NCBI RefSeq assembly: GCF_046105845.1
Contig: NZ_CP151004.1
DNA from: Escherichia coli
GTDB taxonomy: Bacteria; Pseudomonadota; Gammaproteobacteria; Enterobacterales; Enterobacteriaceae
Direction: 5' to 3' (one strand)
Length of the DNA stretch: 64,000 nt
Shown here: one piece after another, positions 9,001 to 12,000 of the stretch
Numbering within the stretch: position 1 is the stretch's first letter
How the letters are laid out: each line of letters opens with the position of its first letter
Made by a program: the position numbers

Positions 9001-12000
9001 CAATCCATTTTACTGGAAGCCGCTGTTGAGCTGGCGAAGAAGGATCGCCCATCTTCCCGCCCTCTACCTGTACGCGAGCGTATTCTGGCGGGGCCGTTAG
9101 GTCGTGCGCTGCTGTTCAAAATGGTCGGCAAGAAAACAGAACACAAAACTCAGGGTAACTATCCGGCGACAGAACGCATCCTGGAGGTTGTCGAAACGGG
9201 ATTAGCGCAGGGCACCAGTAGCGGCTATGACGCTGAAGCCCGTGCTTTTGGCGAACTGGCGATGACGCCGCAATCGCAGGCGCTGCGTAGTATCTTTTTT
9301 GCCAGTACGGAAGTGAAGAAAGATCCTGGCAGTGATGCGCCGCCTGCGCCATTAAACAGCGTGGGAATTTTAGGTGGTGGCTTGATGGGCGGCGGTATTG
9401 CTTACGTCACTGCTTGTAAAGCGGGGCTTCCGGTCAGAATTAAAGATATTAACCCGCAGGGCATAAATCATGCGCTGAAGTACAGTTGGGATCAGCTGGA
9501 GGGCAAAGTTCGCCGTCGTCATCTCAAAGCCAGCGAACGTGACAGACAGCTGGCATTAATCTCCGGAACGACGGACTATCGCGGCTTTGCCCATCGCGAT
9601 CTGATTATTGAAGCGGTGTTTGAAAATCTCGAATTAAAACAACAAATGGTGGCGGAAGTTGAGCAAAATTGCGCCGCTCATACCATCTTTGCTTCGAATA
9701 CGTCATCTTTACCGATTGGTGATATCGCCGCTCACGCTACGCGACCTGAGCAAGTTATTGGCCTGCATTTCTTCAGTCCGGTGGAAAAAATGCCGCTGGT
9801 GGAGATTATTCCTCATGCGGGGACATCGGCGCAAACCATCGCTACCACAGTAAAACTGGCGAAAAAACAGGGTAAAACGCCCATTGTCGTGCGTGACAAA
9901 GCCGGGTTTTACGTCAATCGCATTTTAGCGCCTTACATTAATGAAGCTATCCGCATGTTGACCGAAGGTGAACGGGTAGAGCACATTGATGCCGCGCTGG
10001 TGAAATTTGGTTTTCCGGTAGGCCCAATCCAACTTTTGGATGAGGTAGGAATCGACACCGGGACTAAAATTATTCCTGTACTGGAAGCCGCTTATGGAGA
10101 ACGTTTTAGCGCGCCTGCAAATGTTGTTTCTTCAATTTTGAACGACGATCGCAAAGGCAGAAAAAATGGTCGGGGTTTCTATCTTTATGGTCAGAAAGGG
10201 CGTAAAAGCAAAAAACAGGTCGATCCCGCCATTTACCCGCTGATTGGCACACAAGGGCAGGGGCGACTCTCCGCACCGCAGGTAGCTGAACGGTGTGTGA
10301 TGTTGATGCTGAATGAAGCAGTACGTTGTCTGGACGAGCAGGTTATCCGTAGCGTGCGTGACGGAGATATTGGCGCGGTATTTGGCATTGGTTTTCCGCC
10401 ATTTCTCGGTGGTCCGTTCCGCTACATCGATTCTCTCGGTGCGGGTGAAGTGGTTGCAATCATGCAACGACTGGCCACGCAGTATGGTTCCCGTTTTACC
10501 CCTTGCGAGCGTTTAGTCGAGATGAGCAAGCGTGGGGAAAGTTTTTGGAAAACAACTGCAACTGACCTGCAATAAGAAGGTCAAAGCTATATGAATCCGC
10601 GCTGAATGGCGGAGTGTTGCTCAAAATGTAAACGCATATTGACTATACTTACGCCATTGAGGTAAAAAACAGCGTTTCATTCGGTGAATGGATAAGGCAC
10701 AATGCCGGCCACCGTTTTCTTTCTCTGGTTTCAGATGAAAGAAAACGGGCGAATCTGGTTAACAAAAGCGGTGCAATATGCAAGTTTTTATCATGCGTCA
10801 CGGCGACGCAGCCCTCGATGCCGCCAGTGATTCGGTTCGTCCTCTGACTACTAACGGTTGTGACGAATCTCGCCTGATGGCGAACTGGCTGAAAGGTCAA
10901 AAAGTGGAAATCGAACGCGTTCTGGTGAGCCCGTTCCTGCGAGCCGAGCAAACACTGGAAGAAGTAGGGGATTGTCTGAACCTGCCTTCCAGTGCAGAAG
11001 TTCTGCCGGAGTTAACACCCTGCGGCGATGTTGGTCTGGTCAGTGCCTATTTGCAGGCGTTGACCAATGAAGGTGTTGCTTCGGTACTGGTGATCTCCCA
11101 CTTACCCTTAGTCGGGTATCTGGTTGCCGAGTTATGTCCGGGCGAAACGCCGCCTATGTTTACCACCTCGGCCATTGCCAGCGTAACGCTTGATGAAAGC
11201 GGAAACGGCACATTCAATTGGCAGATGAGCCCATGTAATCTGAAGATGGCAAAAGCGATTTAATACGCATGCACAAGGCCCGCTGGTGTAATCTATCGGG
11301 CCTTTATTTTTTTCTGGCAATGTTGAATTTATGCAATCTTATTGTACTAACAATGATCCGCTTGTGATCGAATGGTCTTTATTTTATACGGCATGACGCT
11401 TTTATTTGTAAAAATTTACATATTGAAAGAGAATTTACTTTTATTCATAAATTATTTTTCTGGAAGCATTTTTAGGTAAATAATGACTAAAGTGAAAAAT
11501 ATTATTGGGTCTTGATTTTATATTAATTATAGTGTTTTAATATTATATCGTTGCGAAATTAATATCACAAGATAGTCATTGCCATGTGATTGTTTTTGAC
11601 TTTGATTTATTCACTGAATTTTTGCATTTGCCGTTTTTTTGAACTCATTCTTCATAACTGAGATGAAAAATTTCAGTAATTATTATTCCTGTCTATTAAT
11701 TAAGTATTTCTAACTTTGAATGTTAGAAAATCTAAATTGCGTCAGTCATATTAAAATATCAATATGTTCGGCACGCCAAAGAATATTGATTCAAGGGACC
11801 TGTTTTTTCAGGATCTGAAAATATGTTCATTGGCTGGTTAAAAGTCGCTGCAAAAAATTGAAGAAGCTCTGTGTCAATATTTCAGTTGGCTTATATTCTA
11901 ATTATTTATGATTTAAGGACAAATAATGAGTAAGTTTGTAAAAGCAGCAGTTGCCACGGCAATGCTCATGGGGGCGCTGACTTCAGCATCAGTCGTTGCC

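What the first reader, a model, noticed from the sequence alone, without database searches (positions are those of the whole stretch)
11314..11925. About 610 bp AT-rich leader upstream of the fimbrial operon
This unusually long, strongly AT-rich non-coding stretch between the sixA terminator and yfcV is the kind of DNA that is typically bound and silenced by H-NS. It contains a closely spaced GATC pair (11355 and 11366) and a third GATC at 11812; GATC pairs in pilus regulatory regions can mediate Dam/Lrp phase variation, but I see no pap-like spacing or invertible-element inverted repeats, so this is speculative.
Basis: inference. Interest (0 to 1): 0.3.

Follow-up and report, generated by a model that had tools for sequence, protein, structure and literature searches.

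The report
Silenced AT-rich yfc fimbrial promoter region
This is the ordinary, already described kind of AT-rich control region in front of a normally silent E. coli fimbrial operon (yfc); H-NS silencing explains it best, and the suggested Dam-methylation switch is not supported.

Summary
Window 11264-11925 is a 662-bp non-coding spacer between the sixA terminator and a yfcV-type fimbrial subunit gene. At GC 0.29 it is the lowest-GC 600 bp of the 64-kb window. GATC sites lie at 11355, 11366 and 11812.

The H-NS reading is supported indirectly. The K-12 spacer at the same position is a published "promoter island" bound by H-NS, with RpoD and RpoS holoenzyme SELEX peaks. The window's allele is only about 52% identical to K-12, but it keeps the length, the AT content and the position of the K-12 promoter (TTGGGT-17-TATAGT, 11505-11533). 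It also has the window's highest density of promoter-like sites.

The Dam/Lrp reading is not supported:
- The three GATCs are no more than chance predicts.
- Their spacings are 11, 446 and 457 bp, not 102-103.
- No GATC is kept across all alleles.
- The locus has no papI/papB-like gene and no recombinase.

Two further observations came out of the work. The whole yfc locus is a cassette with at least seven alleles and sharp borders. The promoter-proximal 200 bp carries conserved blocks, including an imperfect inverted repeat (11770-11839) and an invariant 27-nt ribosome-binding block. Both are untested leads.

Verdict: known kind, low interest.

The parts
11264..11925 (.). sixA-yfcV intergenic spacer: 662 bp, GC 0.289. 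AT-rich regulatory region of the yfc operon.
   Evidence: It has the highest density of sigma-70-like sites in the window, 18 against a mean of 2.25 per 662 bp. No gene is annotated here in the 99.8%-identical strain VCSW7.
11275..11313 (+). sixA intrinsic terminator: GC-rich hairpin followed by a T-run.
   Evidence: RNA fold of -17.3 kcal/mol. A hairpin sits at this position in all alleles, with a different sequence in each.
11355..11369 (.). Distal GATC pair (11355 and 11366), 11 bp apart.
   Evidence: Found only in the window-type allele and kept in 6 of 6 sampled members. Not more than chance.
11505..11560 (+). Conserved promoter-like cluster. TTGGGT (11505-11510)-17-TATAGT (11528-11533) is homologous to the K-12 TTGAAA-17-TATAGT. 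An overlapping site is TTTATA-18-TATTAT (11517-11546).
   Evidence: Alignment block conserved across alleles. PWM scan: every allele has a promoter-like site in alignment columns 323-355. The K-12 promoter is from genomic SELEX (PMC3946193).
11542..11570 (-). Best sigma-70 consensus match in the spacer, TTGTGA-17-TATAAT (10 of 12), pointing towards sixA. A possible spurious antisense promoter.
   Evidence: A consensus match only.
11770..11839 (+). Conserved imperfect inverted repeat or predicted hairpin. Left arm CACGCCAAAGAATA (11772-11785), right arm ATGTTCATTGGCT (11823-11835).
   Evidence: The arms are among the best-conserved blocks in 10 allele sequences. RNAalifold pairs them. It is the most stable and most significant 73-nt fold in the spacer, -21.9 kcal/mol with z about -3.3. 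The arms do not vary, so no covariation test is possible.
11812..11815 (.). Promoter-proximal GATC, 114 bp upstream of the ATG, between the arms of the inverted repeat.
   Evidence: Present at the homologous place in K-12, B1, O55:H7, E69, E. whittamii and E1V33. It reads GAGC in 4 of 4 other window-type strains and GGAGT in the B2 type.
11912..11938 (+). Invariant translation-initiation block TTTAAGGACAAATAATGAGTAAGTTTG (SD AAGGA 11915-11919, ATG 11926).
   Evidence: Identical in all allele classes. A query of window 11725-11940 matched 5381 of 5426 E. coli genomes; outside the window-type allele the match is confined to this part of the query.
11926..18371 (+). yfc-type chaperone-usher operon controlled by the spacer: major subunit 11926-12492, usher 12564-15212, chaperone 15232-15981, three minor subunits, and a YfcO-type adhesin ending at 18371.
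   Evidence: ORFs, Pfam, annotation of VCSW7.

Best explanation
The spacer is the regulatory region of the cryptic yfc chaperone-usher fimbrial operon. It belongs to the known class of AT-rich, promoter-dense 'promoter islands' that RNA polymerase can bind but that H-NS filaments coat and keep silent.

The most likely working model has four parts:
- Sigma-70/sigma-S promoters cluster around 11505-11560, about 370-390 nt upstream of the ATG.
- H-NS, and probably StpA, polymerise over the whole 0.6 kb because of its composition: GC 0.29, twice the window's TpA density and three times its A/T-tract density.
- Expression needs an anti-silencer or a change in nucleoid state. TosR (a PapB-family regulator) and BolA overproduction raise yfcV mRNA in other strains.
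- The conserved promoter-proximal 200 bp adds sequence-specific control that has not been identified.

What is shown here: the anatomy, the composition, the promoter-like density, the conserved blocks, and positional homology to K-12. What is inferred: H-NS occupancy and silencing of this particular allele, and the transcription start.
For: - Composition and promoter density are the most extreme in the window.
- At least seven alleles share only 46-63% identity, yet all are 565-683 bp long with GC 0.26-0.33. Length and composition are kept while sequence is not.
- The K-12 promoter block TATAGT...ATATTATATCG is one of the few distal blocks conserved in the window allele.
- For K-12, the literature reports a promoter island bound by H-NS in two ChIP studies (PMC3661553), an RpoD SELEX promoter plus HNS (PMC3946193) and an RpoS SELEX peak (PMC5493296).
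- Yfc is described as cryptic and H-NS-repressed (PMC3559732; PMC6033998).
- TosR overproduction raises yfcV by log2FC 5.2 in CFT073 (PMC5956150). BolA overexpression raises yfcV (PMC4337573).
- The yfc locus is a divergent cassette between core genes, the kind of DNA H-NS prefers.
Against: - There are no in vivo data for this allele, which is only about 52% identical to the K-12 spacer.
- There is no close match to the high-affinity H-NS motif TCGATAAATT (recalled from memory): none within 1 mismatch, and 4 within 2 mismatches against 2.7 +/- 1.6 in shuffles.
- There is no notable 10-11-bp AA/TT phasing.
- The count of promoter-like sites does not exceed dinucleotide-matched shuffles, 6 against 4.3 +/- 2.3. 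The signal is composition, not a specific design.
- The window's -35 element (TTGGGT) is weaker than K-12's (TTGAAA).
- The primary paper on hns effects on yfc (Korea et al. 2010) could not be read here.
Confidence: 0.72

Rival explanations
1. Pap-like epigenetic phase-variation switch. Lrp and a PapI-like factor would compete with Dam at two GATC sites, so that methylation patterns lock the operon ON or OFF.
For: Three GATCs are present, two of them close together. A promoter-proximal GATC about 103-115 bp upstream of the ATG recurs in 7 of 9 allele lineages. From memory: another fimbrial operon of the same clade, Salmonella std, is Dam-regulated.
Against: - The number of GATCs is at chance level.
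- Spacings are 11, 446 and 457 bp, not 102-103.
- The distal pair exists only in this allele.
- The proximal GATC reads GAGC in 4 of 4 other window-type strains and is absent from the B2 allele.
- The B2 allele has no GATC at all in 565 bp.
- The locus has no papI/papB-like gene.
- The GATC contexts do not resemble the pap GATC box as I recall it.
- No paper in the library links yfcV to Dam or Lrp control.
Confidence: 0.04
2. A long structured 5' leader exerts post-transcriptional control, for example as a stabilising or processing hairpin, a Rho-dependent attenuator or a thermosensor. It would act through the conserved inverted repeat at 11770-11839 and the start-codon-proximal stem. This could operate in addition to H-NS silencing.
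For: - The two best-conserved proximal blocks are mutually complementary, and RNAalifold pairs them.
- The same outer-stem architecture is the minimum-energy fold in all 10 distinct allele sequences.
- In the window it is the strongest local fold of the spacer, z about -3.3 to -3.5.
- The distance between the arms varies (total 70-79 nt), which suits RNA pairing better than a helically phased protein site.
- The 27-nt translation-initiation block is invariant, including synonymous positions.
Against: - The arms do not vary, so there is no covariation.
- Inner segments fold no better than shuffles in most alleles.
- z-scores outside the window type are only -1.1 to -1.6.
- The whole 400-nt putative leader has z -1.9 only.
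- No Rfam family matches.
- The transcription start is unknown, so the repeat may not be transcribed. It could equally be a DNA operator.
Confidence: 0.15
3. Functionally inert junction DNA. The spacer would be a leftover of the horizontally exchanged yfc cassette, AT-rich only because of its foreign origin, with the real promoter confined to the last roughly 100-200 bp.
For: The distal two thirds show almost no sequence conservation between alleles, at 40-57% identity. Divergence starts exactly at the sixA stop codon. One allele lacks about 96 bp of the distal part.
Against: Length (565-683 bp) and GC (0.26-0.33) are retained in at least seven alleles. A promoter-like block 350-395 bp upstream of the ATG is positionally conserved. 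RNA polymerase and H-NS binding map to this spacer in K-12.
Confidence: 0.08
4. A fim-like invertible promoter element flipped by a site-specific recombinase.
For: None beyond the fimbrial context.
Against: No inverted repeats bracket a promoter-sized segment; the listed repeats are short AT-rich chance-level pairs. There is no recombinase gene in or next to the locus. All 634 genomes carrying this allele match the query as a single place, and 633 of them over at least 80% of its length, with no sign of a flipped segment.
Confidence: 0.01

Closest known systems
E. coli K-12 yfcV/sixA 'promoter island' (Panyukov & Ozoline 2013, PMC3661553; Shimada et al. 2014, PMC3946193)
   Same: Same chromosomal position between sixA and yfcV. 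Similar length (680 against 662 bp), AT-rich composition and many overlapping promoter-like sites. The TATAGT -10 block is conserved about 385-390 nt upstream of the ATG, and the ribosome-binding block is the same.
   Different: Only about 52% sequence identity. The -35 element is weaker here. The distal GATC pair is present only here. H-NS and RNA polymerase binding were measured in K-12, not in this allele.
H-NS-silenced cryptic chaperone-usher operons of E. coli (yad, yeh, ycb, ybg, sfm, yra, yfc; Korea et al. 2010, as cited in PMC3559732)
   Same: An operon with no local regulator gene, preceded by AT-rich DNA, silent in the laboratory and reported as H-NS-repressed.
   Different: The primary data could not be read here. 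This is a divergent allele: its YfcV is 67% identical to K-12 YfcV.
pap-family Dam/Lrp phase-variation switch (pap, sfa, daa, clp, pef)
   Same: A fimbrial regulatory region that contains GATC sites.
   Different: It lacks the 102-103-bp GATC pair, PapI/PapB genes and conserved GATCs across alleles.
bgl-type H-NS silencing relieved by IS insertion
   Same: An AT-rich silenced upstream region. IS1 insertions occur in the yfc spacer of some strains (ES9; XJW9B277).
   Different: Whether those insertions activate yfc is unknown, and there is none in the window.

Membership tests
H-NS-silenced AT-rich promoter island | AT content far above the genome average over several hundred bp | tested here: met
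   GC 0.289 against 0.506. Lowest-GC 600 bp in the window.
H-NS-silenced AT-rich promoter island | Unusually high density of overlapping promoter-like sites on both strands | tested here: met
   18 sites of at least 7 bits against a mean of 2.25 per 662 bp; top 0.15% of windows. The excess is explained by composition. PlatProm, the original criterion, was not available.
H-NS-silenced AT-rich promoter island | H-NS occupancy in vivo | not testable with these tools
   Reported for the K-12 orthologous spacer only (PMC3661553; PMC3946193).
H-NS-silenced AT-rich promoter island | Low productive transcription that rises when H-NS is removed or antagonised | not testable with these tools
   Indirect only: Yfc is described as cryptic and H-NS-repressed, and TosR or BolA overproduction raises yfcV in other strains.
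H-NS-silenced AT-rich promoter island | Association with horizontally exchanged or hypervariable genes | tested here: met
   The yfc locus is 40-82% identical to K-12 between flanks at 95-100%. At least seven spacer alleles exist.
H-NS-silenced AT-rich promoter island | High-affinity H-NS nucleation motif (TCGATAAATT-like; motif recalled from memory) | tested here: not met
   No hit within 1 mismatch. Hits within 2 mismatches: 4 against 2.7 +/- 1.6 in shuffles. This is not a strict requirement of the class.
pap-like Dam/Lrp phase-variation switch | Two GATC sites about 102-103 bp apart inside Lrp-binding sites upstream of the promoter | tested here: not met
   GATCs at 11355, 11366 and 11812 give spacings of 11, 446 and 457 bp.
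pap-like Dam/Lrp phase-variation switch | Local PapI- and PapB-family regulator genes | tested here: not met
   The locus holds only a subunit, usher, chaperone, minor subunits and adhesin. No ORF in the spacer is conserved across alleles.
pap-like Dam/Lrp phase-variation switch | GATC sites conserved among orthologous regulatory regions | tested here: not met
   The distal pair is allele-specific. The proximal site is lost in most window-type strains and in the B2 allele, and the B2 allele has no GATC at all.
pap-like Dam/Lrp phase-variation switch | Differential (protected) methylation of the GATCs in vivo | not testable with these tools
   No methylome data were found for this locus.
fim-like invertible element | Inverted repeats bracketing a promoter segment, plus adjacent tyrosine recombinase genes | tested here: not met
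Curated cis-regulatory RNA or sRNA (Rfam 15) | Match to any covariance model | tested here: not met
   No match at E <= 1 in 11000-12200 on either strand.

The most novel reading that the evidence does not exclude
The promoter-proximal 200 bp may hold an undescribed, sequence-specific control module shared by all yfc alleles. It has two parts: a roughly 70-nt conserved inverted repeat (11770-11839) that forms the most stable hairpin of the leader, and an invariant 27-nt ribosome-binding/start block with the AUG in a weak AU-rich stem. Both are preserved although the surrounding spacer has diverged to about 50% identity. The module might act at the RNA level (stability, processing, attenuation or temperature sensing) or as an operator for an unknown regulator.
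Probability: 0.2. Interest if true: 0.45.

Novelty: already known. Interest (0 to 1): 0.15.

Why it matters
yfcV is widely used as a marker of uropathogenic E. coli, yet Yfc fimbriae are silent in the laboratory and their natural inducing signal is unknown. Knowing that the upstream 0.66 kb is a standard H-NS-type silenced region, and not a Dam switch, tells experimenters where to look: anti-silencers and the conserved proximal blocks. As a genome-scan finding it adds nothing new. The only potentially useful by-products are the map of conserved blocks and the multi-allelic cassette structure of the locus.

Tried and rejected
- Rfam scan of 11000-12200 at E <= 1 found nothing.
- Repeat search for invertible-element-like inverted repeats found only short AT-rich pairs.
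- The H-NS high-affinity motif and AA/TT periodicity showed nothing beyond composition.
- Small ORFs at 11269-11367, 11372-11479 and 11720-11818 have no counterpart in other alleles, and one loses its start within the same allele family. They were rejected as genes.
- The test for a pap-type GATC spacing was negative.
- The significance test for the 11-bp GATC pair was negative.
- Literature searches for yfcV or sixA with GATC, methylation or Lrp returned nothing relevant.
- Korea et al. 2010 is not held in the library.
- Inner-stem fold statistics, tried as an independent test of the hairpin, were not significant except in the B2 allele.
- Folding the whole putative 400-nt leader gave z -1.9, unremarkable.
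- By eye I compared the conserved blocks with the RcsB, IHF, CRP, Fur and sigma-54 consensus sequences as I recall them. There were only weak partial resemblances and I claim none of them.

Full report
**What is there.** The window is an E. coli chromosome segment in the order fadI-fadJ-sixA-yfc operon-smrB, the reverse of the K-12 map orientation. sixA ends at 11263. The next gene, 11926-12492, is a Pfam 'Fimbrial' subunit. It is followed by an intact usher, a chaperone, three minor subunits and a DUF2544/YfcO-type adhesin. The best match is strain VCSW7 at 99.8%, where nothing is annotated in the spacer.

- The spacer 11264-11925 is 662 bp with GC 0.289. It is the lowest-GC 600 bp of the 64 kb.
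- It is the longest intergenic gap in the 18.6 kb of annotated homologous sequence.
- The sixA terminator is a GC-rich hairpin plus T-run at 11275-11313.
- GATC sites lie at 11355, 11366 and 11812, as stated.

**The GATC sites are not special.**
- Three sites compare with 1.7 expected from the spacer's base composition and 2.6 from the window-wide GATC density. A GATC-N7-GATC pair is expected 0.68 times per window by chance.
- Spacings are 11, 446 and 457 bp, not the 102-103 bp of pap-type switches.
- Across alleles of this spacer the distal pair exists only in the window type.
- The proximal site is present in K-12, B1, O55:H7, E69, E. whittamii and E1V33. It reads GAGC in four of four other window-type strains. 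It is absent from the B2/UTI89 allele, which has no GATC in 565 bp.
- The locus encodes no PapI/PapB-like regulator and no recombinase. No inverted repeats bracket a promoter segment.
- I found no paper linking yfcV to Dam or Lrp.
- The Dam/Lrp reading is therefore not supported, and neither is an invertible switch.

**Support for the H-NS reading.** Direct data exist only for other strains.
- The K-12 yfcV/sixA spacer is one of 78 'promoter islands'. These are AT-rich regions crowded with promoter-like sites that bind RNA polymerase, give little productive transcription and are covered by H-NS. This one is flagged as H-NS-bound in the Kahramanoglou (MG1655) and Oshima (W3110) data (PMC3661553).
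- Genomic SELEX places an RpoD 'constitutive' promoter TTGAAA-17-TATAGT and an HNS mark in the same spacer (PMC3946193). An RpoS holoenzyme peak falls there as well (PMC5493296).
- Yfc fimbriae are described as cryptic and H-NS-repressed (PMC3559732; PMC6033998). The primary paper (Korea et al. 2010) is not in the library.
- In CFT073, overproducing the PapB-family regulator TosR raises yfcV by log2FC 5.2. The authors predict that TosR binds AT-rich DNA and antagonises H-NS/Lrp-mediated regulation (PMC5956150).
- BolA overexpression also raises yfcV (PMC4337573).

**How far this transfers to the window.**
- The window's spacer is a different allele. It matches 634 of 5426 complete E. coli genomes and aligns to K-12 at only about 52% identity.
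- At least seven allele classes occupy the same site: window type, K-12/B1, O55/O157, B2, E69, E. whittamii and E1V33. Pairwise identity between the classes with a full-length spacer is 44-64%.
- Every allele with a full-length spacer is nevertheless 565-683 bp long with GC 0.26-0.33. Length and composition are retained while sequence is not, which fits a composition-dependent role.
- The K-12 promoter block is one of the few distal stretches conserved in the window: TTGGGT 11505-11510, a 17-nt spacer, then TATAGT 11528-11533. In a simple PWM scan, every allele has a promoter-like site within the same 30 alignment columns, 350-395 nt upstream of the ATG.
- The spacer has the highest density of sigma-70-like sites in the window, 18 against a mean of 2.25 per 662 bp.
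- Limits: that excess is no greater than in dinucleotide-matched shuffles. There is no close match to the high-affinity H-NS motif and no 10-11-bp A-tract phasing. What the sequence offers H-NS is general AT-richness, with twice the window's TpA density and three times its A/T-tract density.
- The best consensus promoter match is on the minus strand (11570 to 11542). My inference is that this is the kind of spurious promoter H-NS usually suppresses.

**Beyond the finding.**
- The whole yfc locus, from the sixA stop codon to just before smrB (about 11264-18500), is 40-82% identical to K-12, while the flanks are 95-100% identical. The spacer is the most divergent part. YfcV proteins of different alleles are 67-74% identical to the window's.
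- Against this background the promoter-proximal 200 bp carries clear conserved blocks:
  - TATTAATTAA (11694-11703)
  - TAAATTG (11733-11739)
  - CACRCCAAAGAATA (11772-11785)
  - TTCAWTGGCT (11826-11835)
  - an invariant 27-nt block spanning the Shine-Dalgarno sequence, the ATG and four codons (11912-11938). A query covering this region matched 5381 of 5426 genomes.
- The third and fourth blocks are complementary to each other. RNAalifold pairs them, and the same outer-stem architecture is the minimum-energy fold in all 10 distinct allele sequences.
- In the window this is the most stable and most significant 73-nt fold of the spacer, at -21.9 kcal/mol with z about -3.3.
- The evidence is weak in other respects. 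The arms never vary, so covariation cannot be tested. Inner segments are not significantly structured except in the B2 allele. The other alleles have z of only -1.1 to -1.6.
- I treat this as a lead, either an RNA hairpin in a long leader or a DNA operator, not a result.

**Verdict.** The H-NS interpretation is the best explanation, but it rests on orthologous position, composition and literature from other alleles. The Dam/Lrp suggestion is not supported. This kind of element, and this very locus in K-12, are already described, so the finding is ordinary.

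Noticed in passing
window 11264-18500: The entire yfc locus is a divergent allelic cassette, 40-82% identical to K-12, with sharp borders at the sixA stop codon and just before smrB; the flanks are 95-100% identical. At least seven spacer alleles exist. The window type is in 634 of 5426 genomes, the K-12/B1/O157 types in about 3529 and the B2 type in about 1216.
   Followed up: partly
window 11770-11839: Conserved imperfect inverted repeat whose arms are the best-conserved blocks of the spacer. It is predicted as the strongest local RNA hairpin and the architecture recurs in all 10 distinct alleles, but there is no covariation.
   Followed up: partly
window 11912-11938: A 27-nt block covering the SD, ATG and first codons is invariant in all alleles, synonymous sites included. 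A query of window 11725-11940 matched 5381 of 5426 E. coli genomes, and outside the window-type allele the match is confined to this part of the query. RNAalifold puts the AUG in a weak AU-rich stem with the SD in the loop.
   Followed up: partly
L018 (E. coli ES9) 1-245; hit H71 (strain XJW9B277): IS1 insertions lie inside the sixA-yfcV spacer in some strains. In ES9 the IS1 ends 81 bp upstream of yfcV and removes the conserved repeat. This recalls IS activation of H-NS-silenced loci such as bgl; the effect here is unknown.
   Followed up: no
L014 (JAIJJM010000567.1, 'MAG: Collinsella sp.'): A 2.2-kb contig of a Collinsella metagenome-assembled genome carries the E. coli sixA-yfcV spacer of the window type at 97% identity. 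This is almost certainly E. coli contamination of the bin.
   Followed up: no
L003 (UTI89) 2552-3145: UTI89 yfcV has lost its stop codon, giving a C-terminal extension, and RefSeq annotates it as a pseudogene. The near-identical allele in strain MEC2025-PR is intact.
   Followed up: no
window 3300-4600: A second AT-rich island (GC about 0.33) has the second-highest density of promoter-like sites. It overlaps a 415-aa ORF (3328-4575, minus strand) between mlaA and fadL that has no Pfam match. K-12 has a listed promoter island at yfdF/mlaA nearby.
   Followed up: no
window 11542-11570 (minus strand): The best sigma-70 consensus match in the spacer (TTGTGA-17-TATAAT, 10 of 12) points away from yfcV towards sixA. 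It overlaps the plus-strand promoter cluster.
   Followed up: no
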